DNA from: Thermoplasmata archaeon
Lineage (GTDB): Archaea > Thermoplasmatota > Thermoplasmata > Halarchaeoplasmatales > Halarchaeoplasmataceae
NCBI GenBank assembly: GCA_003552585.1
Contig: PUNK01000035.1
Span: 93-64,092 of the forward strand
DNA: 64,000 bases
Direction of reading: 5' to 3'
The translations under genes were made by a program, and so were the position numbers. The notes under the pieces are model-generated. The model had not been told where the DNA came from, ran no database searches, and saw only the letters and a list, made by a program, of their open reading frames with translations. Within the stretch, counting starts at the first letter, position 1. The number at the start of each line of letters is the position of its first letter. Shown here piece after piece: positions 1 through 56,949 of the stretch.

Positions 1-295
1 GCCAGGTTGGTTGCTTTTTAGTAGGAGTGTCTTGGTGCCTGAGGGAAAGGGACCCTTAGTACGAGAGGAACAGGGTCTCGCAGCCACTAGTCTACCAGTT
101 GTCCGACAGGGCAGAAGCTGGGTAGCCACGCTGTATGAAGATAAAGGCTGAAAGCATCTAAGCCTGAACCTTTTCCTGAAACGAGGCACCTAAAGACTCC
201 TGTAGAAGACGGGTTTGATAGAACCGGGGTGTAAGTACGAAGCTTCGGCGACGTATTCAGCCCACGGTTACTAAACGTCTGGACTGCCGTTTACA
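1..295 (+). rRNA. rrl: 23S rRNA, 3'-terminal ~300 nt (window begins inside the gene); 3' boundary approximate
   Basis: Sarcin-ricin loop AGTACGAGAGGAAC at 58-71 and conserved GGCTGAAAGCATCTAAGC at 146-163. In 23S, about 130-150 nt normally follow the latter. No 5S rRNA recognisable downstream. Confidence 0.85.
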
Positions 296-5000: not shown

Positions 5001-8000
5001 AATTATGAGGTCAAAGCCCCTAGAGGTGAGATCAGTATTCATGTAACCACAGGTGGTCAAGAAGGGGAGGCGCCTGGACATGATACAGAACCTCCACTTA
5101 CAAGGAGTGGCGATGAGATAACGTTTGAAGATAATCCTGAAGATGAGTTCGAGTTGCCTCCAGGAGAAGAGATGCCTCCTATTGAGGAGATGCCACCTGA
5201 GGAAGAGATGCCACCGATTGATCAACCCCCTGTTGAAGAACCACCGGAAGAACCTTTAGACCAACAAAAGCTGACGAAAACTGAAAATATCGTATTGGCC
5301 TCGACTACACTTGAAATATCAGAAGAACAGGCCATGAGAAGGAAAAGGGATAGAACAGGAGACGGTCGATGGGATTATTTGATAAGAGAAGACATGACAG
5401 TTCCTGCCGGTGAGATCGATGTTAATGTATTCATCGATGTTGACGACAGTGAAGAATATTCACCAGAGCATGATACATTGGTCCCCTCTTCTATAACAAT
5501 AGAAAACGAGAGACACGGAGTTAGAAGGGAATCTGGCCCAACGGATGGAAGTCACACATTCTCCGGATTAATACCTGGAGTTTACAAGTTAAATACCGAT
5601 GTTGGCACGGAAGAGGTCGAAGTTTATGTTCAGCCAGGGGAAACAGCTACCGAAGACATAGCTGTAGACACATCTCATCTTGAGGGTAGTGTAGAGGTCG
5701 ACGAAGACATAGATTACTCAGATATACGTCTTTATCTCGAGGAAAAGGATGGGGATGAGTACTGGAGTACCACAATAGATGATCAAGGAAATTATACCTT
5801 TTCTAATGTCTATCCTGGAACCTATACTCTCGGGGTTGAAGAAGATGAATTTACCCTTAGAGGAGGACCGTTGGTGGTTGAGCTGCAAAGAGGGGAGACG
5901 GAGGAAAGGATATTAAACATCACGCATGCTCAGATAATAGAAGGAGAAGCAGTAAAAGAAGATTCAGTAATAACTAACCAGCGTATTTCCATCTCCGGAA
6001 TAGGAGATCATGATTACTATCATACGATAAGAACTGACGAATCTGGACAATTCAGGGTCAAACTTCCGGAAGGGGTTTACTCTATCTACGGACTTAATCA
6101 GAGGAATGAAGATAAGTTTGCACATCTAGGTCATCTTAACGCTCCTTACGAAGGGACATATAGAGCTGAATTTACACGTGCATTTAGATTACGTGGAAGA
6201 GTTGAGATCGATCAACAGCCTGTGGATCAGTTCAACCTGTTTATAACGAGCGAAGAAGATGGCGAGATGGAGTTGAAAACCAACTCAAAGGGGATGTTCA
6301 GTGTTGTTTTACCTTCGGACGAGTATTACATCTATGGATGGCACATAGAGTTGGATGCATCATTATTCTACTCCGGCTCTATCACACTAAATTCGGACAC
6401 AACTTATAATTTAGAAACAGAATTTGGAAGGATAGTGAGAGGAGTAACTTATAGAGAGACTGGAGAAAGTATTGAACCGGAAGAAAACTTGCCTATATCT
6501 ACTCAGATAGAGTTGATAATCGACGGTCAATCCACCCGGTTAAGATCGGCAAGGGACGGTAGCTTCACCGTGGTAATACCTGATAGGGATACAGAGATCC
6601 GATTTGAAAAACATGGATATTATGAGAAAGTAAAAACCGTCGAAACTGGAGAGGAATTTGATACGGATCTCTATTTAAGAGCTAAGAATGTGACAGTTGA
6701 GGGATCTACCGTTTTCGCACATGACGGTATAGTTCCTGACGGTATACCGGTTGTTTTTGAACCCATCGATGAATGGGGTATGAAAACCCAAGTCGATACG
6801 ATTGATGGAGAATACCTATTAGAAGTACACCCTGGCAGATACGAGGTGTCCGTCCAATATTCTCCCGAGGATCATGTGCGGTATATTGCTTCTGAAGAGA
6901 TAGAGATATTACCCGGAGAGAACGTCGAATTACCTTTGACACTCAAATATGCAGTAAGGATCCATGGATCTATTCAAGACAACCAAGGTGTAGAGCAATA
7001 TGCAAACATAACTTTCCAGGGTGAATATGAGGAAGAGATACGTGCTGATGGTAGCTACGAGATATACTTACCAACTGGAAGTTATTCATATTGGGCGAAG
7101 GGAGAAGATGAAGAAATGGTAGGAACGGGATCCTTCGAAGAAGATGAGCCCAAACAGGTAAACTTAACTTTGGAAGAAGCTGTTGTCTTCAACCCCTTGG
7201 TAAGATACGATGAAGAGCCTAGGGAAGGAATTCCCGTCGAATTCCAGAATATTGATTCAGGATTTTCATTCAATCATACAACGGATGTAGATGGTGGTTT
7301 CGAAGCTCTTTTAGCACCTGGTCAATATTCTGTATCCGTTGACCATATAACCACCGAACCTGTACGAGGTGTGACAAGAAAGGTTCATTATACTTATAGT
7401 GAAGAATATAATGTTGTAGGATCTACTTCTCCTCATATCCCACTTGAAAGAGAGTTTATAAATGCAACATTATATGGAACAGTAGCATTGGAAGATGAGG
7501 TTTTGGAAGGTGTGGAAGTGACCTTTGAAGCACTCTCCCCCGAGGCCATGTCTAAATCTACGGTAACTACCACTGGTGGACATTTCGAGATCGAGTTGTC
7601 GAAGGGCATGTATAGTGTTTATACCGTGTATGAAACCAGTATAGGGCACTTTGCAGCATTCCATGAGTTCGTTATGACTGACGAGGATGATGAGTTAGAT
7701 ATATCCTTGGAAAGAGCTAGAACATTATACGGTGCGGTATTCGCAGAGGGAGAGCGTTTGGAATCGGAAGTTTTGATCCGTTCAGAGGATGGTCTACAAC
7801 TGACTCTTGAAACGGACAGTAACGGAGAATATTTCACCGCCCTTCCTGAAGGTTTTTATACTATAGAAGTTACAGCTGAAATGGAACGAGAGATAATCGG
7901 TCTTACACAGTACAGAAAGAGTGAACAGGTCGATCTTCAATTCAATACGGAAAGAGATATAGAACTAGAGAAGGTAGAAGAATACGGTATAGAGATAGGT

Positions 8001-8777
8001 GAGGTCCGAGAAAAGTCAGCAAGACCAGGAGATACACTTGTCTACGATGTATCGATCAAAAATACCGGTAACGTGCATGATGACTTCATTATATCTGATA
8101 TGGATGCAGTATGGGATATGGAATTTGATCCAGATCAATTCTCATTGGATCCTCAGCAATCTAGGTCTGTCAGGATAAAGCTCCATGTGCACGAGAATGC
8201 CTCCGTAAGCCACCCACCAATACGTTTTGAAGTTGAATCGTTGAGTTCTGGTGAGACAGAAAGCCGAACAATCCGTGTGAATGTAGCTCAACATCACGGT
8301 GTTGAACTTCATCCTGAAGTTAGCAGCAAAGAAGTAAGAGATGGTAAAATAATTTATACGATACCGCTAGAAAACACAGGAAACGGCGAAGATACATATT
8401 CTCTTTATATACGAAACAGACCTAATTTAGAGACGCTTGGGTGGGACGTGTCTTTGGACAATCGTACTGTTGAGGCTAATGATGGTGAGATAGCCGATGT
8501 CGAGATAATCTTAACTCCAATCACATCTAGACCATCTGGACGAGTGAGGCTCGAAATAGAAGCAGTTTCTCAGGGGGATAATTCAGTCAGATATACGGAG
8601 AATTATCACATGGAGGTGCCTGCTATAACTTCAGATCCAGGAACTTTATTTTTGGTTGGGGAAGGGATCTTCCTTGAAAGAGAACCCTTCGAACTTAGCA
8701 GAATTCACTGGGCATTGATAATAATCGGTGTGGTGATCGCCGGTATATACGTTGCACGTAAGAGGAGGTGGTTCTAG
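2079..8777 (+). CDS. aglB: AglB/STT3 oligosaccharyltransferase fused to a ~1500-aa extracellular extension and a C-terminal TM anchor
   Basis: 2232 aa. The N-terminal ~550 aa is polytopic membrane domain with the STT3 signature WWDYG (MSWWDYGFE). The extension has repeated carboxypeptidase-regulatory-like beta-sandwich modules (GRVTTEDGTPIPEARVTVTDEYG..., GxVxDxxG patterns), a polyQ stretch (QQQQQPQQQQEQ, nt ~4625-4665), EEMPP repeats and a terminal TM plus RKRRWF. Confidence 0.85.
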   Translation: MRFSMPKLGDKREKKDKDESTFFEDRWGTIICLVGIFILAFFVRTYFAFELSTKFGTPYLLTGGSDAYYYERIVEYIAFNNRHLLHDNMLNYPLGLTNPRPPMFGWTTALSAYFIYPFVGDLTQAVHYSFILSTGFWGALTIFPTYLVGRDTFGKKAGIAAAFLLAISAGHLQRSIIGNGDHDAIYLFFIVAGFYFFMKALKGIPEDKVWVKDWKVRKDIKKGINEFVSGNKRSLLYAAMAGMCVATVALSWQGYAYVFVIILAYYYVQLFIDKFRYRDSLGVTFCVGIVLSMALLLAAPFYLTSGVGARLPDAVGIWYDVPLILTIIAMVGGVFLTISRDYPWVLVFSTMAAVIAGVLFYAVYINPAFMTALTTGAGYFVRTPAIETIAEAQAPEFSNLVLSFGPASFFLSVAGIALAIWNLKGKWTTDFLFILVWTAFAIYMATSAARFIFNGSPAFALTAGWVIAIIVDRTEFNTLYDRVKSFRGDLVIGLKRGVKARHVITALFLVFLIMLPNVMYGFDAGIPFEEKGRYDDQIHSSLPEFMRPDADDERQQNWHLGAFGYGLDKPTDYWPAAWEWLDEKNSHIPPEQRPGFMSWWDYGFESVQRGKHPTAADNFLSGHRFAGNILMSQNETEMVSLMLVRMLEAPVREDGGLEGDIRTILENHLGREKTDHLEDVMLNREEYREVVLSNPDIYRPRAEDMHPQNVMYAKTMGLLATEELDTITDIYREITDEMGKLLKYLAVDTRLFPMSARQTGIFYAPAKLSGHRIGGEAQARTPIDFFTILYVDEQGNEYEDPDDIPPEVRIVDYKIDYTDMFYNTALYRVFVGYANHWVGADEGIPGLGEEQQQQQPQQQQEQPMPGWGLEHFRIATRTAYYNPYPHEEVRDHPEAWRAVSLQEALEYQERGEGTVDLSAQSYMRQGVVILEYSHGALVSGRVTTEDGTPIPEARVTVTDEYGTPHHVSYTDQEGNYEVKAPRGEISIHVTTGGQEGEAPGHDTEPPLTRSGDEITFEDNPEDEFELPPGEEMPPIEEMPPEEEMPPIDQPPVEEPPEEPLDQQKLTKTENIVLASTTLEISEEQAMRRKRDRTGDGRWDYLIREDMTVPAGEIDVNVFIDVDDSEEYSPEHDTLVPSSITIENERHGVRRESGPTDGSHTFSGLIPGVYKLNTDVGTEEVEVYVQPGETATEDIAVDTSHLEGSVEVDEDIDYSDIRLYLEEKDGDEYWSTTIDDQGNYTFSNVYPGTYTLGVEEDEFTLRGGPLVVELQRGETEERILNITHAQIIEGEAVKEDSVITNQRISISGIGDHDYYHTIRTDESGQFRVKLPEGVYSIYGLNQRNEDKFAHLGHLNAPYEGTYRAEFTRAFRLRGRVEIDQQPVDQFNLFITSEEDGEMELKTNSKGMFSVVLPSDEYYIYGWHIELDASLFYSGSITLNSDTTYNLETEFGRIVRGVTYRETGESIEPEENLPISTQIELIIDGQSTRLRSARDGSFTVVIPDRDTEIRFEKHGYYEKVKTVETGEEFDTDLYLRAKNVTVEGSTVFAHDGIVPDGIPVVFEPIDEWGMKTQVDTIDGEYLLEVHPGRYEVSVQYSPEDHVRYIASEEIEILPGENVELPLTLKYAVRIHGSIQDNQGVEQYANITFQGEYEEEIRADGSYEIYLPTGSYSYWAKGEDEEMVGTGSFEEDEPKQVNLTLEEAVVFNPLVRYDEEPREGIPVEFQNIDSGFSFNHTTDVDGGFEALLAPGQYSVSVDHITTEPVRGVTRKVHYTYSEEYNVVGSTSPHIPLEREFINATLYGTVALEDEVLEGVEVTFEALSPEAMSKSTVTTTGGHFEIELSKGMYSVYTVYETSIGHFAAFHEFVMTDEDDELDISLERARTLYGAVFAEGERLESEVLIRSEDGLQLTLETDSNGEYFTALPEGFYTIEVTAEMEREIIGLTQYRKSEQVDLQFNTERDIELEKVEEYGIEIGEVREKSARPGDTLVYDVSIKNTGNVHDDFIISDMDAVWDMEFDPDQFSLDPQQSRSVRIKLHVHENASVSHPPIRFEVESLSSGETESRTIRVNVAQHHGVELHPEVSSKEVRDGKIIYTIPLENTGNGEDTYSLYIRNRPNLETLGWDVSLDNRTVEANDGEIADVEIILTPITSRPSGRVRLEIEAVSQGDNSVRYTENYHMEVPAITSDPGTLFLVGEGIFLEREPFELSRIHWALIIIGVVIAGIYVARKRRWF

Positions 8778-18592: not shown

Positions 18593-20407
18593 TTAACCTA
18601 CTTTGACCTTTTTCCCTTCGTTCAAGGCCCGAATTATGTTTTTACCGGAATGAGTGTTCTTTCTTATCTTGATCGTTCCATCCCGTCCTACCGTGGCGGT
18701 GGTTAGGTGTTCTCCATCCGCGTACAGATCCACGGTTTCTTTTGAAAATCTACTCCCCACATCTACCACTACTTGATCGGATTCCATGTACACGTTTACC
18801 GTCTTCATCTCTTGACTCTTTTTTTCTCCGCCGTAAGCTTTCACATCTATTTTTACTCCTAGATCTTGTTCGATGTGGGCGATACGCTGACCACCTTTGC
18901 CAAGGAGTGCAGGGATCTGATTATCCATAACATACACCGTGACACTATCTGAAGAGTTCACATCGCAATCTACGGGCCCGTTGACATATTGACTTATATA
19001 TCGTTGGATCTGGTACGAAGCGAGTTCCCATATAGGATCCATTTCTTCTGAAGAGGTCTCCTCCACAGGCATAACCACCACCTGTTCCCCATAGGTGTAA
19101 ATCTCGTATTCAGGAGTACCGGTTTCGAAATCACATACCTCTATCACGGGTCGAGCTAGGTCTTCCTGAACCATCCCTGAGGGAACCTTAACGGTGAATT
19201 TGATGTCGTATACCTTGGTTATCTCTCCTGCTTCAACAAAGATGATGGTATCGACTACTTGGGGCACCATACCGAGCTCGACTCTGCCTATCAGTCGTTG
19301 AAGGGCGTCTATAGCTCTGTTGGCGTGCGTTACACCGACCATCCCTACCCCTGCCAACCTCATATCAGCAAAGACCTTGAAGTCGGGGGTCTTTCTTACC
19401 TCGTCAAAAATAGTGTAGTCAGGTCTTACGAGCAATAAAACATCTGAAGTGTTTTCTAGACTGCCCCCGAGATCGGTATACTGTGTGATATCGTCTGGAA
19501 CTTGAAGATCTCTAGGTTTTTCCATCGTCTTGACAACGAAATCCTTTTTCATAAGGTATATGGCGACCGCCTGGGCTAGAGTGCTTTTTCCAGCACCAGG
19601 TGCACCTGCCAGCATAACCCCTCTCCTTTTTCCCGCTATCCTCTCTTTCAACTCTTCAGATAAACGATATTCATCCAAGTCTACCCTGGCAACAGGTTTT
19701 ACGGCGGTTATCTCGAAACCATCTGAGAAGGGAGGACGGGATATAACTATCCGCATGTCTCCTAATTGGACGATCGTCGCACCACTCTTATCCATCTCGA
19801 TGAAACCTTTTGCTGACCTTTTTGTCCTTTCGATGATCTCATGAGCGATCTGCCTTAATTCGGGTTCATCCATAATTCTATCTTCTATGGTCTCGATCCT
19901 CATGTTCCCAGGAGTGCCTTTTTTTGCCTTGGGTCTTGTTCCCACTCTAAGATGGACCGACATCGTCTCTTCGTCAAAATAGTCCCTTATCCATCTTTTA
20001 CCTTCGATGTCTTCTATCTCGGGTTTCAGGTATTTCACTCTGATACCCTTGGCTTTGGCGATCTTTGCTTGTACCATATCGCTGGTCATGAGCAGTGCGC
20101 TTTCCTCCTCTGCGAGGTCCCTCACCATTGCATCTATCTCCCCCTCCTCAGCGTACTTGACCTGAAATCTATCTGGCCTATTTCCCTTGAAAACCATTGA
20201 TATATCGTGGGTGTCTATTAGTTTTCTGAGAGATCCTATTTCTTCCAGTCCGCTCATGCCCGTCTCTTTACCTTTATTGGCCTGTGCTTCCAGCTCGGCT
20301 ATCACCGCTTCTGGGATGATGATCTCGAATCCATCGAGTTCCCCCTCCTTTACCATAGAAGTTATTCGACCGTCGATGATAACACTTGTATCAGTTAAAA
20401 CCTTCAT
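18593..20407 (-). CDS. PIN-domain + P-loop ATPase + KH-domain protein (PINA-like)
   Basis: N-terminal PIN (VLTDTSVIIDGRI...). Walker A GAPGAGKST and Walker B region. C-terminal KH-like GKGGQRIAHIEQDLG. Confidence 0.75.
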   Translation of the reverse strand: MKVLTDTSVIIDGRITSMVKEGELDGFEIIIPEAVIAELEAQANKGKETGMSGLEEIGSLRKLIDTHDISMVFKGNRPDRFQVKYAEEGEIDAMVRDLAEEESALLMTSDMVQAKIAKAKGIRVKYLKPEIEDIEGKRWIRDYFDEETMSVHLRVGTRPKAKKGTPGNMRIETIEDRIMDEPELRQIAHEIIERTKRSAKGFIEMDKSGATIVQLGDMRIVISRPPFSDGFEITAVKPVARVDLDEYRLSEELKERIAGKRRGVMLAGAPGAGKSTLAQAVAIYLMKKDFVVKTMEKPRDLQVPDDITQYTDLGGSLENTSDVLLLVRPDYTIFDEVRKTPDFKVFADMRLAGVGMVGVTHANRAIDALQRLIGRVELGMVPQVVDTIIFVEAGEITKVYDIKFTVKVPSGMVQEDLARPVIEVCDFETGTPEYEIYTYGEQVVVMPVEETSSEEMDPIWELASYQIQRYISQYVNGPVDCDVNSSDSVTVYVMDNQIPALLGKGGQRIAHIEQDLGVKIDVKAYGGEKKSQEMKTVNVYMESDQVVVDVGSRFSKETVDLYADGEHLTTATVGRDGTIKIRKNTHSGKNIIRALNEGKKVKVG

Positions 20408-22293: not shown

Positions 22294-22340
22294 TTTTGCG
22301 AAAAAGTTTATACCTTTTGTATCTAATCAGCCGATAGTTT

Positions 22341-23591
22341 ATGGCTAAATTTATCCGAACCGACAGCGGAATTCTCTGTTGTTCTTACTGTGGAACTGCT
22401 GTAGAGAAGGAAGACGAATCTTGTCAGAATTGTGGCGAAAGGCTTGAGGGAGAGATAACTGACGGTAAGGTATGCCAATCCTGTAATACGGTCTCAAGTA
22501 GACTTGAGGATATATGTCCTAACTGTGGTGCGGAACTCGACTTGATTAAACCTAAGAGCGAGGATGATGAATATCTTTCGCGCCTACTCGGCTGGAGCGA
22601 CGAGGCAGAAGAAAAACTACGCTCGAAAGTTGAGGAGAAAAAAAAAGCAGTAGACGTTTTCAAAAAGATGACCTCTGCTGGAGCTGTAAAAAGTGAAGAT
22701 GATGATATGAAAGATACTGATGAACTATATGATACAGAAAATGGCATCGACTTTGACATGATATTTTCGAAGATCAAAGATAGGAAGGAAAGGGTGAAAG
22801 AAGAACTTCAAAACGTTAATGATGATCTAGTTGTGGAAAAATACGAGAATGAACTTGATCATCTCAAAGAAATGGAGGATACAGCAAGTAGGATGGAAAA
22901 GAATGTGAAACAAACTATATCTAAACAAGAAGAAGAGTTCAAGCTAAAGAGGGAGGAACTAAAAGAGAGGATTAGGGAATTTAAGAAGGTCGTCAAAAGA
23001 AGGGAATCAGAGAAGAATAGGATTAACGAACACAAAGAAAAACTTACAAAAAAAGAAGATGAATTGAAAAAATGGGAGACCCAACTCAGGGCTTGGGAAG
23101 AAGACCTCAGAGATAAGGAAGAAGATATTAGACAAATAAAGGAGATGTATGAGGACGGGGAAAGACAACTAGAGGAGATAGAAAGGGAACTTCCTGAAGA
23201 AGGAGGAGTGACTGAAGAGGAATGGCTTGATGAGCAGAAAAGGGTTCAGAGGGAACTCTTTAAATTGAAGGATGTTTGGGAGGACGATGAAGAGCTTGAA
23301 GAGCTTGATGGGCAAAGTCTACGATATTTCAGAAAGAAGATCAAAGAAAAAGAGGAAGAATGGAAGCAGAAAATGAAGGATCTAGAGAAAGAGCTAGAAA
23401 GGGTGAGGGAAGAGAAGGAGATGGTCATGAAAAAGGAATTGGACATCGACCTGGAAAGAGATGAGATAGGAGAGATCCTGACCGTGCTTGATACATTGTT
23501 GGGTCATCTTCCGGAAGAGAAAATTTCAGAATTTGCAAGTTCGGAGCATTTTGAGCTTTACGAAAAAGTGCTGGATGCTTTTGAAATTTAA
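22341..23591 (+). CDS. double zinc-ribbon protein with long E/K-rich coiled-coil tail
   Basis: Two CxxC-x(n)-CxxC pairs in the N-terminal 70 aa (CSYCG...CQNCG; CQSCN...CPNCG), then ~340 aa of charged coiled coil. Confidence 0.6.
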   Translation: MAKFIRTDSGILCCSYCGTAVEKEDESCQNCGERLEGEITDGKVCQSCNTVSSRLEDICPNCGAELDLIKPKSEDDEYLSRLLGWSDEAEEKLRSKVEEKKKAVDVFKKMTSAGAVKSEDDDMKDTDELYDTENGIDFDMIFSKIKDRKERVKEELQNVNDDLVVEKYENELDHLKEMEDTASRMEKNVKQTISKQEEEFKLKREELKERIREFKKVVKRRESEKNRINEHKEKLTKKEDELKKWETQLRAWEEDLRDKEEDIRQIKEMYEDGERQLEEIERELPEEGGVTEEEWLDEQKRVQRELFKLKDVWEDDEELEELDGQSLRYFRKKIKEKEEEWKQKMKDLEKELERVREEKEMVMKKELDIDLERDEIGEILTVLDTLLGHLPEEKISEFASSEHFELYEKVLDAFEI

Positions 23592-23603
23592 GGAGATCGT
23601 CAG

Positions 23604-26600
23604 ATGGGTCTACGGGAAAAAGCCAGAAAGTTACGTGAGGAAGAGAAACGCATCGAAGAGGACGAAGAGAAAGTTACAGAGGAGTTGGAAGAGTTCCAGG
23701 AACGCCTCAAAGAATTAAAAGAAGAGATAAAAGAACTGGAAGAAAAAAGGGAGGAAGTTCTAGAGGATGTTAAAAAGGAGCAAGCAGAACTGGACGAACT
23801 CATCGAAGAAAAGAAAGAAGCAGAATATGAGGTAGAACAACTTCAAGAAAAGGAAGAGGAATTGATTCAGAAAAGGGAGGATTTGGAGAAAGAGAGAAAG
23901 GATCTAGAATATGAACTTAAAACGAAGGAGAAGGAACTTGAAAAAAGGGAGGAAGAGCTCGAAAAGGAGATAAACGATCTTGAGACTTTCAAAACATCTT
24001 TAGATGAAAGGGAAGAAGAGCTTGCTGAAAAGGAGAAAGAGATCGAGGAGTTAAAAGAAAAAGGAGATGTGATCAGTACTGAACTCGAGGAAATTGAGAA
24101 ACAAAAGAACGAACTGGAAAAGGAAAGAACAGAGCTTGAAGAGGAAAGGGAAGAGCTTACGGAGCTTAAAAAAGATATAGACGAGAAGGAAAAAGAACTC
24201 GAAGAAATGGAAAAGGATATCAAGCATAAAGAGGAGGAACTTGAGGAGATCGAGGAAAAGAGAAAAGAGTTGGAGAAAGAAGAAGAGCAGATAGGTGAGA
24301 GAGAAAGATCTTTGGAAAAATCTCAGGCGGAGTTGAAAAGCGGATTTGAGGAATTGGAACAACTAAAAGCAGATTTAGAGGAGAGAGAACAGAAATTACA
24401 GGATCAAAAAGAGGAGCATGAAGAAGCACTCAATGAAGCGGAATTATTAAAACAGCAGCTGGAAGAAAGAGAGTCTACCCTCGTAGAGAAGGAAAAAGAA
24501 GTGGATGAACTTGAAGAAGAGTTAGAAGAACGGGAGAAAAGTCTCAGAGGTAAAAAGGGTGCTTTAACACGTAAAGAAAATGCATTGACGGAGCTTGAAG
24601 AGCAGTTGAATGAAAAAGAAAGGATGTTGGAAGAGAAAGAAGAAAAGCTAAAAGAGGAAGTTGAGGAGCAGTTGTTCGAGGAAAGGAAACAAGAACTCGA
24701 CGAGCTCGATGGAGAGCTATCTTCCAAAAGGGATGAGAGGGAGGAATTGGAAAGCAAATTAGAGGATTTACAAGGTGAATTACAATCTTTAGAAAAAAGA
24801 AAAGATGAACTTCAGACTCTGAAAGAGGAGGTCCAGCAAAGAGAGAAGCAAGTTGAGGAGAAAGAAGAGCATCTTGAACAAAGAGAGGCTGAAGTCAGTG
24901 ATAAAGAGGAGTTGATAGATCAGGCTGAAGAGAGATTGGAGGAGCTTGAAGAAAGGGAGCAAGAGCTTGACTCAAAAGAACAGAAATTGACAGGATTAGA
25001 GACCCATTTAGAGGAGAGGGAGGAGAATTTAAAGGACAAGGAAGCAGAAATAGACGAAAGGCAGACAGAACTAGATCAATTGGAAACAGAGATAACCGAA
25101 AAAGAGTCATCACTCGCAGAGAGAGAGGAAAAACTTGATGTAAGGTCATCTGAACTTGATGAAAAGGAGGGGGATTTGGAGGAAAGAGAGGAAAAGGTCC
25201 AAAAGAAAGAGAAGGATTTAGATGATCTAGATACAGAGCTGGGTAAAGAAGAAAACAGGCTAGAGGAATGGAAGGCTGAGTTGGAAGACTGGGAAGAAGA
25301 GGTTGAAAGCAAAGAAGAAGAGTTAGATTCATTAGAACAAGAGGTGCAAAAAAGAGTCGAGTCGGTAGAAGAAAGAGAAGAAGAACTGGCAGAAATTGAG
25401 AGTGGATTGGATGATAAGGAAAAGGATCTTATTGAAAGAGAGGAGGAAGTAAATTCACTCAAAGAGGAACTCCGGTTAAAAGAAGAGAGATTGGAAGAAA
25501 GAAAGAAGAACTTAGAGGATCTAGAAAGCAATCTAGATGGTGTCGAAGCCCGTCTTGTCAAAAAAGAAAAGAAATTAGAAAAGTTTGAGGATGACCTTAA
25601 CGAAAGAAAAGATGAAATAGATAAGCGAGAAGAAAAATTGATCGCTAGGGAGAAAGAACTGGAGCGGGAAAGCGAGCTTTTAGAGGAAAAGAGTGGAGAA
25701 CTAAGCGAACTAAATTCAGAATTAGATAATAGAAAATCCCGTTTAGATAAACGAGAGGAAGGATTGGATACGAGAGAAGAAGGGCTTGCAGGATGGGAGG
25801 AAAAACTTGAGCAGAGAGAAAGCTCGGTACAGAAGTTAGAGAACAAATTGGGTTCGATGGAAAATGATTTGATCAAACTTGAGTCTCGCCTAGAAAAGAG
25901 AGAAGCTGAACTGAAGGAATGGAAAGAGAGGTTAAACTCACGTGAGGATGAGCTGGATGAGAGGGAAAAAGAGATCAAGGAAACAACTGATGAACTCAAA
26001 GAAAAAGGTAAAGATCTTGAGAAGCTAGAGGATAGATTGGATGAGAGAGAGGAGGAACTGAACTCGAAGGAAAGCGAACTTGAAGATAAAGATAACAGAC
26101 TCATCTCAGAGAAGAAAAATCTCAAGCTCAAAGAAGAAGGGCTGCACGAATTGAGAGAAGAACTTGCCGACTTTGAGACCGAGTTGGACGAGCGAAATGA
26201 GAAATTTGAACAGAATGTCCAAAAGAAGGAAGAAGAACTAGAAAAGAAAGAGGCTTCATTAGAGCAGCGAGAAGAGATTTTAGATGAGATGGAGGATAAG
26301 TTATCTACAAAGGAGAAAGACCTGAATCAGCGTGAAGGCAGTTTGTCACATCGGGAAGAGAAATTAGAAGAAAGGAAGAGTGAACTCGAAGAGCGAGACT
26401 CTACGGTATCTTTGTTGGAGGACGGCTTAAAAGAGCTTCAAGATGAATTAGAAAAATGGAGAAACCAGCTAGAGGAAAAGGAGGAAGAGATAGAACTTCA
26501 GAGCAATAAAGCTGAGAAACAGTTGAAAGAAGCGAAGAGACTAGATGCAAGGTTGGATCAACGTGAAAATGCAATTCAAGAAAACTTAGAGAAGGTTGAA

Positions 26601-27584
26601 AATGAGAAGAAAGAGGTATTAAATCTGTGGACTGAGGTAGGCGAAAAACTCGAGAGGTTGAGTACACTAGAGGAGGAATTAGAAGATAAGGAAGAAAAAT
26701 TAGATAAATTAGATGATGAGTTGTCTTCTAGGGAAAGAAACATCTCAAATAGAGAGAAAGCGGTGAGTGAAAAGGAAATAAAGTCAGCTGATAGGGAGAG
26801 AAGGATACAGGAACAGATAGAGGACTTGACTTCGGAGATGGAGAAGATACAGTCCTGGAGTGAAGCTGTCCTTGACAAGGAAGAGCAAGTACGTCAGTGG
26901 AAAGAGGATCTCGAGTCTTGGGAGGATGAACTTGAAGATCGAAGGGAAGAAATAGAAGATCAAAGACGTGAACTAAAAGAGATGAGAGAGAAAGTTCCCC
27001 AACGCTTGGAGGAGGTTAAGAAGAGAGAGAAGAAAGTAGAAAGGAAAAGAAGAGACATGATCAATTGGAAGGAAAAATTACAGGCCAAGGAAGAGCTGTT
27101 GAAGGACCAAGAAAGGGAGATGGAAGAGGAAAGAAAGCATCTAGAAGAGGTTAAGGAGAGTGCCATGAACTTCATGGACTATGCCCGATCAAAGAAGGCA
27201 AGAGAAGAGAAGAAATTACGTGAGCAGATAAAAAAGGAAAGGGAAAAATTGGAAAGAGAGAGACATTTGCTTGAAGAAGAGCTAAAAGAGCGTGAGAAAC
27301 GGTTGGAGGATAGGGAAGAGGATCTCGAAACAAAATCATCAAGGATAGAAGAGATCGAAAAGGATTTGAAGGTCCGTAAAGAAAAATTAGATGCCCAACA
27401 GAAGGATATCGTTGAGGAGAGGGAAGAACTAACTGAGATGTGGTCTCAAGTGGAGGAGGAGGCAGAGAAGGTAAAAGATCTTGAGGATTGGGAATCCGAA
27501 TTGAAAGTGAAAGAGGACAAATTGAAAAAGAAGAAAGAAAGGATCGATAGGATGAAGAAGCACTTAGATGACCTTCTCAGTTAG
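23604..27584 (+). CDS. giant (1326 aa) E/K/L-rich coiled-coil protein, no recognisable enzymatic domain
   Basis: Continuous heptad-like KEKELEKREEELEKE repeats throughout. No Walker motifs at either end. AGGAGA RBS 7 nt upstream. In the same frame as the preceding gene, separated by a single TAA. Confidence 0.7.
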   Translation: MGLREKARKLREEEKRIEEDEEKVTEELEEFQERLKELKEEIKELEEKREEVLEDVKKEQAELDELIEEKKEAEYEVEQLQEKEEELIQKREDLEKERKDLEYELKTKEKELEKREEELEKEINDLETFKTSLDEREEELAEKEKEIEELKEKGDVISTELEEIEKQKNELEKERTELEEEREELTELKKDIDEKEKELEEMEKDIKHKEEELEEIEEKRKELEKEEEQIGERERSLEKSQAELKSGFEELEQLKADLEEREQKLQDQKEEHEEALNEAELLKQQLEERESTLVEKEKEVDELEEELEEREKSLRGKKGALTRKENALTELEEQLNEKERMLEEKEEKLKEEVEEQLFEERKQELDELDGELSSKRDEREELESKLEDLQGELQSLEKRKDELQTLKEEVQQREKQVEEKEEHLEQREAEVSDKEELIDQAEERLEELEEREQELDSKEQKLTGLETHLEEREENLKDKEAEIDERQTELDQLETEITEKESSLAEREEKLDVRSSELDEKEGDLEEREEKVQKKEKDLDDLDTELGKEENRLEEWKAELEDWEEEVESKEEELDSLEQEVQKRVESVEEREEELAEIESGLDDKEKDLIEREEEVNSLKEELRLKEERLEERKKNLEDLESNLDGVEARLVKKEKKLEKFEDDLNERKDEIDKREEKLIAREKELERESELLEEKSGELSELNSELDNRKSRLDKREEGLDTREEGLAGWEEKLEQRESSVQKLENKLGSMENDLIKLESRLEKREAELKEWKERLNSREDELDEREKEIKETTDELKEKGKDLEKLEDRLDEREEELNSKESELEDKDNRLISEKKNLKLKEEGLHELREELADFETELDERNEKFEQNVQKKEEELEKKEASLEQREEILDEMEDKLSTKEKDLNQREGSLSHREEKLEERKSELEERDSTVSLLEDGLKELQDELEKWRNQLEEKEEEIELQSNKAEKQLKEAKRLDARLDQRENAIQENLEKVENEKKEVLNLWTEVGEKLERLSTLEEELEDKEEKLDKLDDELSSRERNISNREKAVSEKEIKSADRERRIQEQIEDLTSEMEKIQSWSEAVLDKEEQVRQWKEDLESWEDELEDRREEIEDQRRELKEMREKVPQRLEEVKKREKKVERKRRDMINWKEKLQAKEELLKDQEREMEEERKHLEEVKESAMNFMDYARSKKAREEKKLREQIKKEREKLERERHLLEEELKEREKRLEDREEDLETKSSRIEEIEKDLKVRKEKLDAQQKDIVEEREELTEMWSQVEEEAEKVKDLEDWESELKVKEDKLKKKKERIDRMKKHLDDLLS

Positions 27585-34409: not shown

Positions 34410-34505
34410 GCTCCTGTGGTGTAGTCCGGCCAATCATTTCGGCCTTTCGAGGCCGATCCCGGCCGTAGATAGCCGAATACCTGGGTTCGAATCCCAGCAG
34501 GAGCA
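34410..34505 (+). tRNA. tRNA-Glu(UUC) with a 21-nt intron (mature length 75 nt)
   Basis: Hand-folded: acceptor GCTCCTG/CAGGAGC. D-arm GTGTAGTCCGGCCAATCAT is typical of archaeal tRNA-Glu. Anticodon stem TCGGC/GCCGA, loop CTTTCGA (anticodon TTC). T-arm CTGGG-TTCGAAT-CCCAG. Discriminator A. Confidence 0.75.
34450..34470 (+). other. tRNA intron (inserted at/after position 37-38 of the anticodon loop)
   Basis: Removing the 21 nt (AGGCCGATCCCGGCCGTAGAT) restores a canonical 7-nt anticodon loop and 5-bp stem. The intron duplicates the GGCCGA of the stem, consistent with a bulge-helix-bulge fold. Confidence 0.55.
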
Positions 34506-39292: not shown

Positions 39293-40234
39293 ATGACCGA
39301 GGTCTTAATGGTAAAGATTAAAAGGTTCGGGGCGCAGACTGAAGATCCGATAAAGAGACCGGACACCATGATCTTTGGTATTGGAGGTGCCGGTAGGAAT
39401 ATTTTATCTTCGATGATCGACACTCCACACCTTTCTAATGTGGACAAATTTGAGGTCGGGTGTGTAGATATGCTCCCCAACCTACCGTTTATACAGATCG
39501 ATAAGCGAGATATGAAGGAATCTTTTGATTCAAAATCTTCCTTCGGGATACGTCCCCCTAACCCAACCGAAGAAAAGCTGATCCGCAGGATCAAAAATGC
39601 TGATATTCTATATCTATTATCCGGTATGGGTGGACGGACAGGAAGCTGGACCACTCCTACATTAGCTCATATCGGAAAGAACAAAGGGGCCTTCACCATA
39701 GCCCTGCTTGCAATGCCTTTCGAAACAGAAAATACAGGGCGATGTCGTTTTGCAGAGGAGGCTAAGGATAGGGTTGGAGAACATGCAGACATCTTGGGCG
39801 TGTTCAGCAACAGTCGATTACTAAGTCTAAATCCACATCTACCTATGACAAAAGCGTTCGACGTTATGAATAATATAATCAGTCTTCCCGTGCAGGACTT
39901 AAATGCTGTTGTGACAAAGGATGATCTAAAAACTCTAAAAGTATTCTGTGACGGTGTCGATGAGTTCAGGATAGGTGCGGGGTATGGTAGGGGTAGAGAG
40001 AGGGGTAAACGGGCCTCCGAAGAGGCCTTACGTTCTCCATGGTTGGATGATTTTTCCGACTACCGTACCATACTCAGTGTTGTCACTAGTGGTGTAGGTT
40101 CAGCCGAGCTCGAGGCCAGCGATGCACTCGATATAATCAGTGAAAAGGCACCGAAGGCCAACATCCTCTGGGGACTTAGAAAAAACCCCGAGCTGGGGGA
40201 AAGAACAAAAGTGACCTTATTGGCTGGAAAATAA
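39293..40234 (+). CDS. divergent FtsZ/tubulin-superfamily GTPase (FtsZ-like paralog, 313 aa)
   Basis: T1 GIGGAGRN. T4 tubulin signature degenerated to GMGGRTGSWTTP. T5 PFETENTGRCRF. SNSRLL (FtsZ NDxLL). C-terminal domain EALRSPWL...VTLLAGK. Lacks the FtsZ C-terminal linker and tail. Confidence 0.7.
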   Translation: MTEVLMVKIKRFGAQTEDPIKRPDTMIFGIGGAGRNILSSMIDTPHLSNVDKFEVGCVDMLPNLPFIQIDKRDMKESFDSKSSFGIRPPNPTEEKLIRRIKNADILYLLSGMGGRTGSWTTPTLAHIGKNKGAFTIALLAMPFETENTGRCRFAEEAKDRVGEHADILGVFSNSRLLSLNPHLPMTKAFDVMNNIISLPVQDLNAVVTKDDLKTLKVFCDGVDEFRIGAGYGRGRERGKRASEEALRSPWLDDFSDYRTILSVVTSGVGSAELEASDALDIISEKAPKANILWGLRKNPELGERTKVTLLAGK

Positions 40235-43471: not shown

Positions 43472-43993
43472 ATGAAAGATGATAGCCATACATGTACATA
43501 TATGATTGAGGATGATACGAGTGAAACGAAGATCATCGTAGAGTGTGGAGAGTGTTCTAATAGTTTTTCGTTTAGATCATGCCTTCCTGAGATAGTAAGA
43601 TCGTGGGACAAGGTATCTAATTCAGATAAATTGATTTTTTCAGATACCTTTGAACGTAAGTACTCCAAAGGAACCGTTGAGATCATCTCATTCTTTCTTT
43701 CTCTACACGAACAATTTAAAAGAAATTCACGACGTGATCCTGATAAAAAAGAATGTAAGAAATGTGTTATTTCACCAAAAAGGATCTATTCTAGCTTGAT
43801 CGTTGACTTGGAGAAAGATCCCGAAGATATGTTTGAGTCGATCAACTCTGCAGCCCTCGAGCTTATGAAATCCAGCGGATGTCGGTCATGCAGGAGAGCA
43901 ACTATTGAGGAGTTAAGGGTGTTGTCTTCTTCTTTACTTGATATGAACTCGAGAGTATTATCGAAAGCATACGGTATTGTAGGTGAGGGATAG
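43472..43993 (+). CDS. hypothetical Cys-pair protein (possible Zn-binding), overlaps the start of the secretion ATPase
   Basis: 173 aa. Cys pairs CGEC, CKKC and CRSC. 11-nt overlap with the downstream gene. Confidence 0.4.
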   Translation: MKDDSHTCTYMIEDDTSETKIIVECGECSNSFSFRSCLPEIVRSWDKVSNSDKLIFSDTFERKYSKGTVEIISFFLSLHEQFKRNSRRDPDKKECKKCVISPKRIYSSLIVDLEKDPEDMFESINSAALELMKSSGCRSCRRATIEELRVLSSSLLDMNSRVLSKAYGIVGEG

Positions 43994-53722: not shown

Positions 53723-54105
53723 CCCGTCTCCTTCCTGAAGCAGCCGACTACGGCGAGCTGAGGTAGCTCCTCTATGTTATCTAAACCATCCAGGTCGACC
53801 ATATCTATATCCTCTCTCAGCAAAGTCAATCTGACCGCTTCCATTATCTTAGCGATGTCTATATCTCTTGGACATCTTACGCTGCAGGTAAAACAGGCCG
53901 CACAGATCCACATCGTGTTGTTTTTCATTATCCCCTCTCGATCCCCTAAAACTATCCGCTTGAATATCCTTTCTGGTAATACATCCATCTCTTCAACAAA
54001 AGGACATCCTGCGGAACAGGTACCACAGCGTATACAAGCATTTACCGACTCACCTGACAGCTCTTCCACCTTTTCTAGAAATTCCAGATCCCTTTTCACC
54101 TTCAT
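53719..54105 (-). CDS. HdrC-like 2x[4Fe-4S] ferredoxin subunit
   Basis: CIRCGTCSAGCP and CAACFTCSVRCP; 128 aa. Confidence 0.7.
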   Translation of the reverse strand: MKVKRDLEFLEKVEELSGESVNACIRCGTCSAGCPFVEEMDVLPERIFKRIVLGDREGIMKNNTMWICAACFTCSVRCPRDIDIAKIMEAVRLTLLREDIDMVDLDGLDNIEELPQLAVVGCFRKETG

Positions 54106-56526: not shown

Positions 56527-56948
56527 TCCTCCAGGGGCACATCGCTCAGGTCGAGAGGACCGAGCTGTTTCACTTCTTCAACCATTTCTTTCATAACTTT
56601 TGCGAACTTACCCCCCTCCGCTGATGATATCCATTCTAGACGCAATCTTTCCGGGTTTATCCCCATATCTTTTAGTATCTTGGACATCATCTCTATCTTC
56701 CTTTTGGTCTTATAGTTCCCGTTTATATAATGGCAGTCTCCCGGGTGACATCCTGCCACTAGTACCCCATCAGCTCCCTCCTGAAACGATTCGAGGACGT
56801 GCTCAGGTGAAACACGGGAGGAGCACATCAGGCGGATACTCAATATGTTGGGCGGGTACTGTTCCCTGTTAACGCCGGCCAGGTCGCCTCCTGCGTAACT
56901 GCACCAATTACAGAGAAAAGCTATGATCCTTGGTTCATGCTCATCCAT
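56523..56948 (-). CDS. mvhD: methyl-viologen-reducing hydrogenase delta subunit (MvhD)
   Basis: PRIIAFLCNWCSYAGGDLAG typical MvhD [2Fe-2S] region. Confidence 0.85.
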   Translation of the reverse strand: MDEHEPRIIAFLCNWCSYAGGDLAGVNREQYPPNILSIRLMCSSRVSPEHVLESFQEGADGVLVAGCHPGDCHYINGNYKTKRKIEMMSKILKDMGINPERLRLEWISSAEGGKFAKVMKEMVEEVKQLGPLDLSDVPLEE

Positions 56949-56949
56949 A

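What the first reader, a model, noticed from the sequence alone, without database searches (positions are those of the whole stretch)
22341..27584. Double-zinc-ribbon protein plus 1326-aa pure coiled-coil protein, in the same reading frame across a single TAA
Together these are ~1740 aa of almost uninterrupted E/K/L heptad repeats with no ATPase head or other enzymatic domain. They are preceded by a Nudix hydrolase gene. Both ORFs are in frame (coordinate mod 3 identical) and separated by TAA plus 12 nt containing an AGGAGA RBS. They may therefore be a two-subunit filament or tether system, or a single giant gene with a stop that is read through or recently acquired. Possibilities include a long cytoskeletal or tethering assembly anchored by the Zn-ribbon head. 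I do not recognise a described family.
Basis: seen in the sequence. Interest (0 to 1): 0.7.

Follow-up and report, generated by a model that had tools for sequence, protein, structure and literature searches.

The report
Zinc-ribbon adaptor plus giant coiled-coil pair
Two separate, co-transcribed archaeal genes encode a small zinc-ribbon adaptor and a 1326-residue coiled-coil rod, and comparative evidence suggests the end of the first protein docks onto the first residues of the second, a pairing also seen next to pilus-type ATPases in other archaea.

Summary
Gene A (22341-23591, 416 aa) is followed by TAA, 12 nt with a GGAG ribosome-binding site, and gene B (23604-27584, 1326 aa) in the same frame.

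The shared frame is a coincidence. In 21 related assemblies the pair is conserved, but about half have an 11-nt spacer and different frames. Stop codons vary and B always starts MGLRE[KR]A. These are two genes, not a read-through product, an SMC/Rad50 relative or a misassembly.

A consists of a double zinc ribbon, coiled coil, two conserved motifs and a C-terminal three-helix domain (Pfam PF27359 "TP_0179", function unknown). B is a register-perfect coiled coil with an odd core: position a is 100% aliphatic and position d is mostly Arg/Lys. Its net charge is -211.

The new result is a pairing rule. In 54 of 56 non-redundant loci, a gene ending in the TP_0179 domain is followed by a gene starting [GS]L[RLK][EDNQ][KR]. 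That gene encodes either a giant coiled coil or a PilB-type ATPase. One locus forms a three-gene chain, as the rule predicts.

My best reading is an adaptor-rod assembly joined by this docking pair and acting as a tether or scaffold. The docking and the cellular role are inferred, not shown.

The parts
22300..22314 (+). BRE/TATA-like promoter element GAAAAAGTTTATACC, 27-41 nt upstream of the start of gene A. It implies a leaderless or near-leaderless A-B transcript.
   Evidence: The sequence is. The same GAAAA(A/T/G)GTTTATA(C/G) element sits at the same distance in 9 of 10 orthologous loci. Its function as a promoter is inferred.
22341..23591 (+). Gene A: 416-aa adaptor made of a double zinc ribbon, coiled coil and a C-terminal TP_0179 domain.
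   Evidence: Orthologues share 44-57% identity in 10 Thermoplasmata MAGs.
22380..22529 (+). Double zinc ribbon, aa 14-63, with four CxxC pairs.
   Evidence: Pfam DZR E 5.8e-07, 30 bits against a cut-off of 27.3.
22560..22613 (+). Conserved acidic-amphipathic motif EDDEYLSRLLGWSDEAEE, aa 74-91.
   Evidence: Conserved in alignment A1. It recurs as E[ED][EK][FY]LxKL[LI]xWG in distant class-1 A proteins of L026, L037 and L064.
22824..23189 (+). Long helix of A, aa 162-283, predicted coiled coil.
   Evidence: AlphaFold2 model m3d0302d6b6f5, pLDDT 80-94 in this stretch.
23190..23279 (+). Conserved helix-break motif LPEEGGVTEEEWLDEQKRVQRELFKLKDVW, aa 284-313.
   Evidence: Invariant P285, E293, E294, W295, Q303, E305, L306, F307, L309 and K310. 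Also present in L037 and L064.
23466..23588 (+). TP_0179 C-terminal domain, aa 376-416: IGEILTVLDTLLGHLPEEKISEFASSEHFELYEKVLDAFEI. It is a small three-helix module with net charge about -10.
   Evidence: Precomputed Pfam PF27359 hit on the identical protein. AF2 gives three helices with pLDDT about 90. The motif lies at the extreme C-terminus in 146 of 163 family members held.
23589..23603 (+). TAA stop of A plus a 12-nt spacer carrying the GGAG ribosome-binding site (23592-23595) for B.
   Evidence: GGAG or GGTG abuts the stop in the orthologues, and spacers are 9, 11, 12 or 15 nt.
23604..27584 (+). Gene B: 1326-aa coiled-coil rod with net charge -211.
   Evidence: Orthologues are 1289-1438 aa.
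23604..23639 (+). N-terminal peptide MGLREKARKLRE, the proposed docking helix for the TP_0179 domain.
   Evidence: MGLRE[KR]A is invariant in 11 orthologues despite synonymous codon variation. The same peptide class starts the gene after 54 of 56 TP_0179 genes.
24969..26186 (+). 406-residue stretch (aa 456-861) of unbroken heptads with a = L/V/I in 58 of 58 heptads, d = R/K 59% or hydrophobic 34%, and e = E 72%.
   Evidence: The same a/d/e pattern holds in all 11 orthologues over aa 721-861.
27138..27215 (+). Conserved break in the coiled coil, HLEEVKESAMNFMDYARSKKAREEKK (aa 1179-1204), locally basic.
   Evidence: The heptad score collapses at aa 1188-1209. The motif is nearly invariant in orthologues and recognisable in L037 B as ALALMRYAKSVEEK.
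27525..27581 (+). Conserved basic-amphipathic C-terminal motif KKKKERIDRMKKHLDDLLS (aa 1308-1326).
   Evidence: The L037 counterpart is KRAHLEKMKERIESLLGE.

Best explanation
A and B are two separate genes of one bicistronic operon in a halo-alkaliphilic Thermoplasmata archaeon related to Ca. Halarchaeoplasmatales. They encode the two subunits of a long coiled-coil assembly.

B is a parallel-register coiled-coil rod. It would be about 197 nm long if continuous. Its length and heptad register are under selection.

A is an adaptor. Its C-terminal three-helix TP_0179 domain is acidic and hydrophobic. I propose it captures the basic amphipathic N-terminal helix of B (MGLREKARK). This would place A's own coiled coil and its double zinc-ribbon head at the N-terminal end of the rod.

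The same 'C-terminal TP_0179 domain then N-terminal MGLxEKA peptide' pairing, written into gene order, joins other cargoes in other archaea. These cargoes include giant coiled coils carrying HhH or DUF835 domains, PilB-type ATPases, and chains of three proteins.

I therefore read the pair as a docking-domain-assembled tether or scaffold, a cytoskeleton-like element.

Shown: gene structure, conservation, heptad anatomy and the adjacency rule. Inferred: the physical A-B contact, the oligomeric state and the cellular role.
For: 1. Separate genes.
- Spacers of 9, 11, 12 or 15 nt put A and B in different frames in 5 of 10 genome-collection orthologue pairs.
- Stops vary, and L009 has extra in-frame stops.
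- Metagenome relatives show the same.
- Public gene calls list A and B as two genes.

2. Operon.
- A BRE/TATA element is conserved upstream of A.
- GGAG or GGTG abuts A's stop.
- Neighbours vary in distant loci, so the module is self-contained.

3. Coiled coil under register constraint.
- The 3.5-residue periodicity peak is 66 times the mean power.
- Position a is aliphatic in 58 of 58 heptads over aa 456-861, and the pattern is conserved in all orthologues.
- 68 of 127 indel runs are multiples of 7.
- The C-terminal ~600 residues align almost without gaps.

4. Pairing rule.
- TP_0179 is at the extreme C-terminus in 146 of 163 family proteins.
- 54 of 56 non-redundant TP_0179 genes are followed within 200 nt by [GS]L[RLK][EDNQ][KR]. 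My own rough estimate of the chance expectation is about 1% per locus.
- The downstream partner differs in kind. It is a giant coiled coil, a coiled coil with HHH_5 or DUF835, or a T2SSE ATPase.

5. Prediction fulfilled. In L063, B itself ends in a TP_0179 domain, and the next gene, 8 nt later, starts MGLKDRGRK.

6. Class-level covariation.
- GLR[DE][KR] peptides go with domain tails 'LDxxx[ILV]'.
- GLL[EQN]K peptides go with tails 'L[NSLT][KR]YK[INT]K'.

7. Minimal version. In L012, A is only zinc ribbons plus TP_0179 (about 113 aa) in front of a 1438-aa B.

8. Charge complementarity. The domain has net charge -10, and the first 11 residues of the peptide carry five Arg/Lys.
Against: - No direct test of A-B binding was possible.
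- The covariation is confounded by phylogeny, because it separates two clades.
- Loci were collected through the TP_0179 side. The reverse question was not tested: how many MGL-starting proteins lack an upstream TP_0179 gene.
- The d position is mostly Arg/Lys, which is unusual for a stable two-stranded coiled coil. The oligomeric state, strand orientation and even the need for a partner strand are therefore unknown.
- There are no expression or localisation data.
- The ligand of the zinc ribbons is unknown.
- One locus (L056) breaks the rule. L038 fails only the regex, because it reads MAGLRDQAK.
Confidence: 0.55

Rival explanations
1. One giant gene whose internal stop is read through, or was acquired recently (a pseudogene split).
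For: In this window A and B share a frame across a single TAA.
Against: - 5 of 10 genome-collection orthologue pairs have 11-nt spacers and different frames.
- Stops are TAA or TAG, and L009 has two more in-frame stops in its spacer.
- B's ATG and MGLRE[KR]A are conserved with synonymous changes.
- A ribosome-binding site precedes B in all loci.
- The boundary is also conserved in the ATPase-containing class.
Confidence: 0.02
2. An SMC/Rad50/MukB-type chromosome protein, or a JetC/LmuB defence protein, with its ATPase heads encoded elsewhere.
For: NCBIfam SMC_prok_B scores 171 bits and ASRP 122 bits. PADLOC JetC and LmuB also hit.
Against: - All scores are far below the curated cut-offs (567, 729 and 300 bits).
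- The hits fall mid-model, within the region SMC-type models devote to the coiled-coil arms, at shifting positions.
- There is no Walker A, Walker B or signature motif, no hinge and no CxxC hook in B.
- The heptad register is continuous, without a central fold-back point.
- Neighbouring genes are unrelated housekeeping genes.
Confidence: 0.03
3. Assembly artefact: a collapsed or expanded low-complexity repeat.
For: Extreme E/K/L composition.
Against: - There are no DNA tandem repeats beyond 15-53 nt micro-arrays.
- Orthologues of 1289-1438 aa occur in more than 15 independent assemblies from different samples.
- They align colinearly at 29-45% identity, with conserved unique motifs.
Confidence: 0.01
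4. A and B are co-expressed but do not dock through TP_0179 and the MGL peptide. The two conserved termini each contact a common third partner, such as the membrane or a hub protein. Alternatively, the MGL N-terminus is a targeting or processing signal. B would then act on its own as a structural coiled coil.
For: - The N-terminus resembles basic amphipathic membrane-binding helices. This resemblance is my own recollection of PspA/Vipp1 helix alpha-0 and is a lead only.
- No binding test could be run.
- The covariation is only at the level of clades.
Against: - Strict adjacency holds across unrelated cargo types, and the three-gene chain in L063 fits pairwise contact.
- The MGLREKARK peptide has few hydrophobic residues for a membrane helix (L3, A7, L10).
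- Neither protein has a transmembrane segment or a signal peptide-like hydrophobic stretch.
Confidence: 0.2
5. The cellular role is nucleoid tethering or organisation rather than a cortical or cytoskeletal scaffold. In this reading the zinc ribbons of A, and the basic motifs of B at aa 1179-1204 and at the C-terminus, bind DNA.
For: Relatives L037 and L064 carry an HHH_5 helix-hairpin-helix domain right after the MGL peptide (E 6e-16 and 5e-11). L037 B shares the C-terminal motifs of the window protein. From general knowledge, zinc ribbons often bind nucleic acids.
Against: - The window protein has no HhH domain.
- Other relatives carry DUF835/iKaiC, a signalling-type domain, at the same place.
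- The rod has net charge -211.
- The sister class attaches to pilus-type ATPases at the membrane.
Confidence: 0.15

Closest known systems
Docking domains of modular polyketide and non-ribosomal peptide synthases (general knowledge, not tested here)
   Same: A short helical domain at the C-terminus of one subunit pairs with a short N-terminal helix of the next. The pairing order is mirrored by gene order, and chains of more than two subunits occur, as in L063.
Bacterial coiled-coil-rich cytoskeletal proteins such as crescentin, FilP and Scy (general knowledge)
   Same: Very long proteins built almost only of coiled coil, without a nucleotide-binding domain, and proposed to act as scaffolds or tethers. 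From memory, Scy is of similar size.
   Different: There is no detectable homology. The heptad core is different (a invariant aliphatic, d mostly Arg/Lys). The net charge is extreme. A dedicated zinc-ribbon adaptor with a docking domain is present. Filament formation is untested.
SMC / Rad50 / archaea-specific SMC-related proteins
   Same: Long coiled coils, and weak profile hits that fall mid-model in SMC-type profiles.
   Different: No ATPase heads, hinge or zinc hook. Scores are 3-6 fold below the curated cut-offs.
Pfam PF27359 (TP_0179), named after the Treponema pallidum hypothetical protein TP0179
   Same: A's last ~45 residues are a member according to precomputed Pfam hits.
   Different: The family is uncharacterised, and TP0179 is listed only as a hypothetical protein. 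The link to an N-terminal MGLxEKA peptide in the next gene was not found in the searched literature. The bacterial members could not be examined here.
HP0958/FlgZ of Helicobacter pylori, a zinc ribbon plus coiled-coil hairpin accessory of a filament machine (cited in PMC4858521)
   Same: A small cytoplasmic protein combining a zinc ribbon with a coiled coil, associated with a secretion-ATPase-driven filament system. This resembles the class-2 relatives.
   Different: The zinc ribbon is C-terminal and single in HP0958. HP0958 has no TP_0179 domain and no giant partner. No homology was tested or detected.
ER/K single alpha-helix (SAH) domains
   Same: Very high content of E, K and R, and predicted as an uninterrupted helix.
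   Different: i to i+4 opposite-charge pairs are not enriched (201 observed against 218 +/- 12 in shuffles). There is an invariant aliphatic seam every 7 residues.

Membership tests
Double zinc ribbon (Pfam PF12773 DZR) | Two consecutive zinc ribbons, each with two CxxC knuckles, and a profile score above the gathering threshold | tested here: met
   aa 14-63 score 30 bits against a cut-off of 27.3, E 5.8e-07. CxxC pairs at positions 14, 28, 45 and 59.
Pfam PF27359 (TP_0179 domain) | Profile match to the family model | tested here: met
   Precomputed PF27359 hits on the identical protein P0001 and on all orthologues. The model is absent from the local Pfam copy, so no score could be recomputed.
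SMC / Rad50 / MukB-type proteins | N- and C-terminal ABC-ATPase head halves (Walker A, Walker B, signature motif) | tested here: not met
   No G....GK[ST] and no hhhhD[ED] in A or B. The best NCBIfam score is 171 bits against a cut-off of 567, and the best stretches fall mid-model.
SMC / Rad50 / MukB-type proteins | A central hinge or CxxC zinc hook that lets the coiled coil fold back | tested here: not met
   B has no Cys. Heptads run continuously through the middle of the protein.
Canonical heptad coiled coil | 3.5-residue hydrophobic periodicity with hydrophobic residues at both a and d | tested here: inconclusive
   Periodicity is very strong and position a is 100% aliphatic. Position d is only 34% hydrophobic and 59% Arg/Lys. 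Oligomeric state is not testable here.
ER/K single alpha-helix | Enrichment of i to i+4 opposite-charge pairs and absence of a hydrophobic seam | tested here: not met
   201 pairs against 218 +/- 12 in shuffles. An invariant aliphatic seam is present.
RNase Y (Pfam RNase_Y_N PF12072, TIGR03319) | An N-terminal membrane anchor plus KH and HD domains. The RNase_Y_N hit alone formally passes its cut-off (90 bits against 32). | tested here: not met
   The hit is four scattered coiled-coil stretches. The full-length model TIGR03319 scores 59 bits against a cut-off of 454. There is no transmembrane segment, with maximum hydropathy of -0.1. I treat the hit as compositional.
SEC10/PgrA surface exclusion domain (TIGR04320) | A secreted, cell-wall-anchored Gram-positive surface protein. 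The domain hit formally passes its cut-off (104 bits against 70). | tested here: not met
   Six scattered stretches in coiled coil. No signal peptide-like hydrophobic stretch or anchor, and the host is an archaeon. I treat the hit as compositional.
Intermediate-filament-like coiled-coil-rich proteins (crescentin, FilP class) | Nucleotide-independent self-assembly into filaments in vitro and in vivo | not testable with these tools
   This needs purified protein and EM.
Proposed TP_0179 / MGL-peptide docking pair (defined in this report) | A gene ending in the TP_0179 domain, immediately followed by a gene whose product starts M(x0-4)[GS]L[RLK][EDNQ][KR] | tested here: met
   In the window...FELYEKVLDAFEI*, then 12 nt, then MGLREKARK. 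54 of 56 loci overall follow the rule.
Proposed TP_0179 / MGL-peptide docking pair (defined in this report) | Physical binding of the domain to the peptide | not testable with these tools

The most novel reading that the evidence does not exclude
TP_0179 and the MGLxEKA peptide form a general archaeal docking code written into gene order. It assembles proteins head-to-tail, both as A to B pairs and as A to B to C chains. In Thermoplasmatota it would build a previously unknown coiled-coil cytoskeleton or tether from rods about 0.2 um long with a non-canonical Leu/Arg core. The same code would recruit type-IV-pilus ATPases to their accessory proteins.
Probability: 0.3. Interest if true: 0.8.

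Novelty: new variant of a known kind. Interest (0 to 1): 0.6.

Why it matters
As far as I know, no coiled-coil cytoskeletal element of archaea has been characterised experimentally, and little is known about cell architecture in uncultured Thermoplasmatota. This pair offers three things.

- A concrete, conserved candidate: a length-constrained rod of about 200 nm with its own adaptor.
- A simple, testable protein-protein recognition rule. It assigns a role to an uncharacterised Pfam domain with 3629 cluster representatives at E <= 0.001.
- A link between that domain and pilus-type ATPases.

If the docking is real, the 45-residue domain and 10-residue peptide would also be a compact natural tag-and-catcher pair. 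The heptad pattern (a always Leu/Val/Ile, d mostly Arg/Lys, e Glu), kept over hundreds of residues and across orthologues, is of interest for coiled-coil design.

Tried and rejected
- Read-through or single gene: rejected from orthologue frames and stops.
- Misassembly: rejected and by the independent assemblies.
- SMC/Rad50/JetC/LmuB: the hits are compositional and no head motifs are present.
- RNase_Y_N and PgrA hits formally exceed their cut-offs, but they are scattered coiled-coil matches without the defining domains.
- SAH: rejected.
- PDB sequence searches with the A profile and with B's C-terminal 163 aa found nothing.
- Word-indexed homology searches were saturated by coiled-coil words, or limited by the short domain length, and returned few hits.
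- Literature searches for TP0179, SpiroCoCo, the peptide strings and DUF835 gave no functional description.
- The archaeal type IV pilus survey (PMC4858521) and the ESCRT survey (PMC11188069) mention other zinc-ribbon or coiled-coil accessory proteins, but not this pair.
- B's exact sequence is not on record in the contig index.
- The window's own T2SSE/T2SSF locus (43983-47676) is not of the TP_0179/MGL class.


Full report
**1. The observation**

- The coordinates are exact. ORF A is 22341..23591 (+, 416 aa) and ORF B is 23604..27584 (+, 1326 aa).
- The junction is GAAATT-TAA-GGAGATCGTCAG-ATG. TAA lies at 23589-23591, a GGAG ribosome-binding site at 23592-23595, and both starts are 0 mod 3.
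- A matches the Pfam double zinc ribbon above threshold and has four CxxC pairs.
- B is 31% Glu, 14% Lys and 14% Leu, with no Cys and a single Pro.
- The hydrophobic pattern of B has a 3.5-residue spectral peak 66 times the mean power, and autocorrelation maxima at every multiple of 7.
- The upstream gene is a Nudix hydrolase.
- TRF finds no tandem DNA repeat longer than 53 nt in the region, so the repetitiveness is at the protein level only.

**2. Where it comes from**

- The identical A protein is on a soda-lake sediment contig (JGI 3300000477, SL_5KL_010_SED) and in an NCBI record.
- A scan of one genome per species found 11 related loci. All are Thermoplasmata MAGs, and one is named Ca. 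Saliniplasma, order Ca. Halarchaeoplasmatales.
- The window starts with the 3' end of an archaeal 23S rRNA. Otherwise it carries housekeeping genes.

**3. Two genes, not one**

- In all 10 loci that hold both genes, A (405-455 aa) is followed by a B of 1289-1380 aa. In L002, B runs off the contig end. In L012, a short A precedes a 1438-aa B.
- The spacer is 11 nt in five loci, which puts the genes in different frames. It is 12, 9 or 15 nt in five others, which keeps them in the same frame.
- Stops are TAA or TAG. L009 has two additional in-frame stops in its spacer.
- Metagenome relatives show the same mixture.
- B always begins MGLRE[KR]A[KR]K. The codons for G, L, R, E, K and A vary synonymously, so selection acts on the peptide.
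- GGAG or GGTG abuts the stop of A everywhere.
- A BRE/TATA-like element GAAAA(A/T/G)GTTTATA(C/G) is conserved 27-41 nt upstream of A's ATG in 9 of 10 loci.
- I infer a leaderless A-B transcript that is independent of Nudix. The Nudix synteny is lost in L009, L010 and all distant loci.
- Public gene calls list the two as separate genes. The B orthologue has no Pfam hit on record.
- The same-frame arrangement in this window is therefore a coincidence, and the read-through idea is rejected.

**4. Anatomy of A**

The alignment of seven homologues and the AlphaFold2 model (pLDDT 70) give this layout:

| Residues | Feature |
|---|---|
| 14-63 | Zinc ribbons |
| 74-91 | Conserved acidic-amphipathic motif EDDEYLSRLLGWSDEAEE |
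| about 110-134 | Low-confidence linker |
| 162-283 | Long helix |
| 284-313 | Conserved break and motif LPEEGGVTEEEWLDEQKRVQRELFKLKDVW |
| 324-388 | Second long helix |
| ends at 416 | Compact C-terminal module |

- A model of the last 59 residues, built with 23 homologues, gives three helices at pLDDT about 90.
- This module is Pfam PF27359, 'TP_0179'. TP0179 of Treponema pallidum is listed only as a hypothetical protein in the literature I could search.
- The module has no significant structural neighbour in the PDB.

**5. Anatomy of B**

- Heptads run essentially without loss of register for hundreds of residues. The only strong break is at aa 1188-1209.
- Over aa 456-861 the heptad positions are as follows:
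  - Position a is L/V/I in 58 of 58 heptads.
  - Position d is Arg/Lys in 59% and hydrophobic in only 34%.
  - Position e is Glu in 72%.
- The same a/d/e pattern holds in all 11 orthologues.
- Indels among orthologues are multiples of seven in 68 of 127 runs. The C-terminal ~600 residues align almost gap-free. Part of the 7-fold bias may come from aligning periodic sequence.
- Net charge is -211, or -0.16 per residue. The mean for 28 other proteins of the window is -0.043.
- i to i+4 opposite-charge pairs are not enriched, so this is not an ER/K single helix.
- Conserved non-heptad features are:
  - the N-terminal peptide;
  - an LP at about aa 1131;
  - the basic motif HLEEVKESAMNFMDYARSKKAREEKK (aa 1179-1204);
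  - the C-terminal KKKKERIDRMKKHLDDLLS.
- There is no Walker motif, no Cys and no transmembrane segment.
- Hits to SMC, Rad50, JetC, LmuB, RNase_Y_N and PgrA are scattered coiled-coil matches without the defining domains.
- A continuous coiled coil of 1326 residues would be about 197 nm long.

**6. The pairing rule (the main new result)**

- An exhaustive profile search with the C-terminal region of A found 3629 cluster representatives at E <= 0.001.
- In 146 of the 163 sequences held, the motif LDxLLGxLPxxxIxxFxxSxxFxLYEKVLxxYxI lies at the very C-terminus.
- Two small members sit immediately upstream of T2SSE/T2SSF/pilin loci. The ATPase there begins MGLLEKGQEKK or MGLLEKAKQKK, the same kind of N-terminus as B.
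- A metagenome scan gave 50 further loci.
- Over all loci, 54 of 56 non-redundant genes ending in this domain are followed within 200 nt by [GS]L[RLK][EDNQ][KR]. L038 reads MAGLRDQAK, and only L056 lacks the motif.
- There are two classes:
  - Class 1 has a zinc-ribbon A protein followed by a 1200-1750-aa coiled-coil protein starting MGLR[DE][KR]A.
  - Class 2 has a Lys/Glu-rich protein followed by a 585-670-aa PilB-type ATPase starting MGLLEKAQQKK.
- In class 1, the segment right after the peptide is variable. It is absent in the window, a DUF835 (inactivated-KaiC) domain in L025 and L026 (and, from its sequence, L038), and an HHH_5 domain in L037 and L064.
- L037 B shares the C-terminal motifs of the window protein.
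- In L012, A is reduced to zinc ribbons plus the domain.
- The rule made a prediction that held. L063 B (606 aa) starts MGLKDRLRQ and itself ends in a TP_0179 domain. The next gene, 8 nt downstream, starts MGLKDRGRK.
- Peptide class and domain tail co-vary. GLR[DE][KR] goes with 'LDxxx[ILV]', and GLL[EQN]K goes with 'L[NSLT][KR]YK[INT]K'. This separates two clades and is not independent evidence.
- Flanking genes in distant loci are unrelated housekeeping genes, so the module is self-contained.

**7. Mechanism**

The best-supported model has these steps:

- A and B are made from one transcript.
- The acidic three-helix TP_0179 domain of A binds the basic amphipathic N-terminal helix of B.
- This caps one end of a long, stiff, highly acidic rod with A's coiled coil and zinc-ribbon head.
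- The other end of the rod carries conserved basic motifs.

The logic resembles the C-terminal/N-terminal docking domains of modular synthases, where gene order mirrors assembly order. That comparison rests on general knowledge, and there is no homology.

Gene structure, conservation, heptad anatomy and the adjacency rule are shown. Binding, stoichiometry, strand orientation and the cellular role are inferred. The cellular role could be a cortical scaffold, a nucleoid tether or a spacer for a membrane machine. The HhH variants point to DNA, and the ATPase class points to the membrane, so I do not commit beyond 'tether or scaffold'.

**8. Novelty**

- The zinc ribbon and the TP_0179 domain are catalogued families, and long coiled-coil scaffolds are a known kind.
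- I found no description of this archaeal pair, of the non-canonical Leu/Arg heptad, or of the domain-peptide adjacency rule.
- I rate it a new variant of a known kind, with moderate-to-high interest, because it turns an uncharacterised domain into a directly testable interaction.

**9. Limits**

- Loci were collected from the TP_0179 side only.
- Bacterial members were not examined.
- No complex prediction could be run.
- The afdb50 library was unavailable.
- There are no expression data.

Noticed in passing
window 2079-8777 (+): A 2232-aa protein with an N-terminal STT3/AglB oligosaccharyltransferase domain, fused to a very long array of CarboxypepD_reg and Ig-like repeats. This is unusually large for an archaeal AglB.
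   Followed up: no
window 43472-47676 (+): A type-IV-pilus-like locus: a Cys-rich 173-aa ORF, a T2SSE ATPase (577 aa, GTG start) and a T2SSF protein. The ATPase has no MGL peptide and the upstream ORF has no TP_0179 domain, so this genome's own pilus-type locus is not of the class-2 kind.
   Followed up: partly
window 18593-20407 (-): A 604-aa protein combining PIN, a T2SSE-like P-loop ATPase and KH domains.
   Followed up: no
window 39293-40234 (+): A short (313 aa) FtsZ/tubulin-family protein. I did not determine whether it is FtsZ or a CetZ-like paralogue.
   Followed up: no
window 34410-34505 (+) and 1-294 (+): A tRNA match spanning 96 nt, which probably contains an intron, and the 3' end of the archaeal 23S rRNA at the window start.
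   Followed up: no
L063 676-3991: A three-gene chain. A zinc-ribbon/TP_0179 protein is followed by a 606-aa protein that starts MGLKDRLRQ and ends in TP_0179. A third gene then starts MGLKDRGRK.
   Followed up: yes
L041 (two places): One locus carries two separate TP_0179-to-GLL(N/Q)K pairs, which suggests duplicated modules next to a T2SSE ATPase.
   Followed up: no
L014 244-2082: The class-2 ATPase repeats the peptide motif inside its disordered N-terminal extension. It starts MGLLEKGQEKKE, and a second copy reads RSLLEKAQQKKESE about 60 residues in. These may be two docking sites.
   Followed up: no
L012 14512-15393 (+): In this relative, the giant coiled-coil gene is followed by a further 293-aa charged, helix-rich ORF on the same strand. 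It has no MGL start.
   Followed up: no
window 54102-59952 (-): NiFe-hydrogenase large and small subunits next to a 1000-aa HdrA-like flavoprotein with Fe-S domains. This is typical of anaerobic Thermoplasmatota energy metabolism.
   Followed up: no
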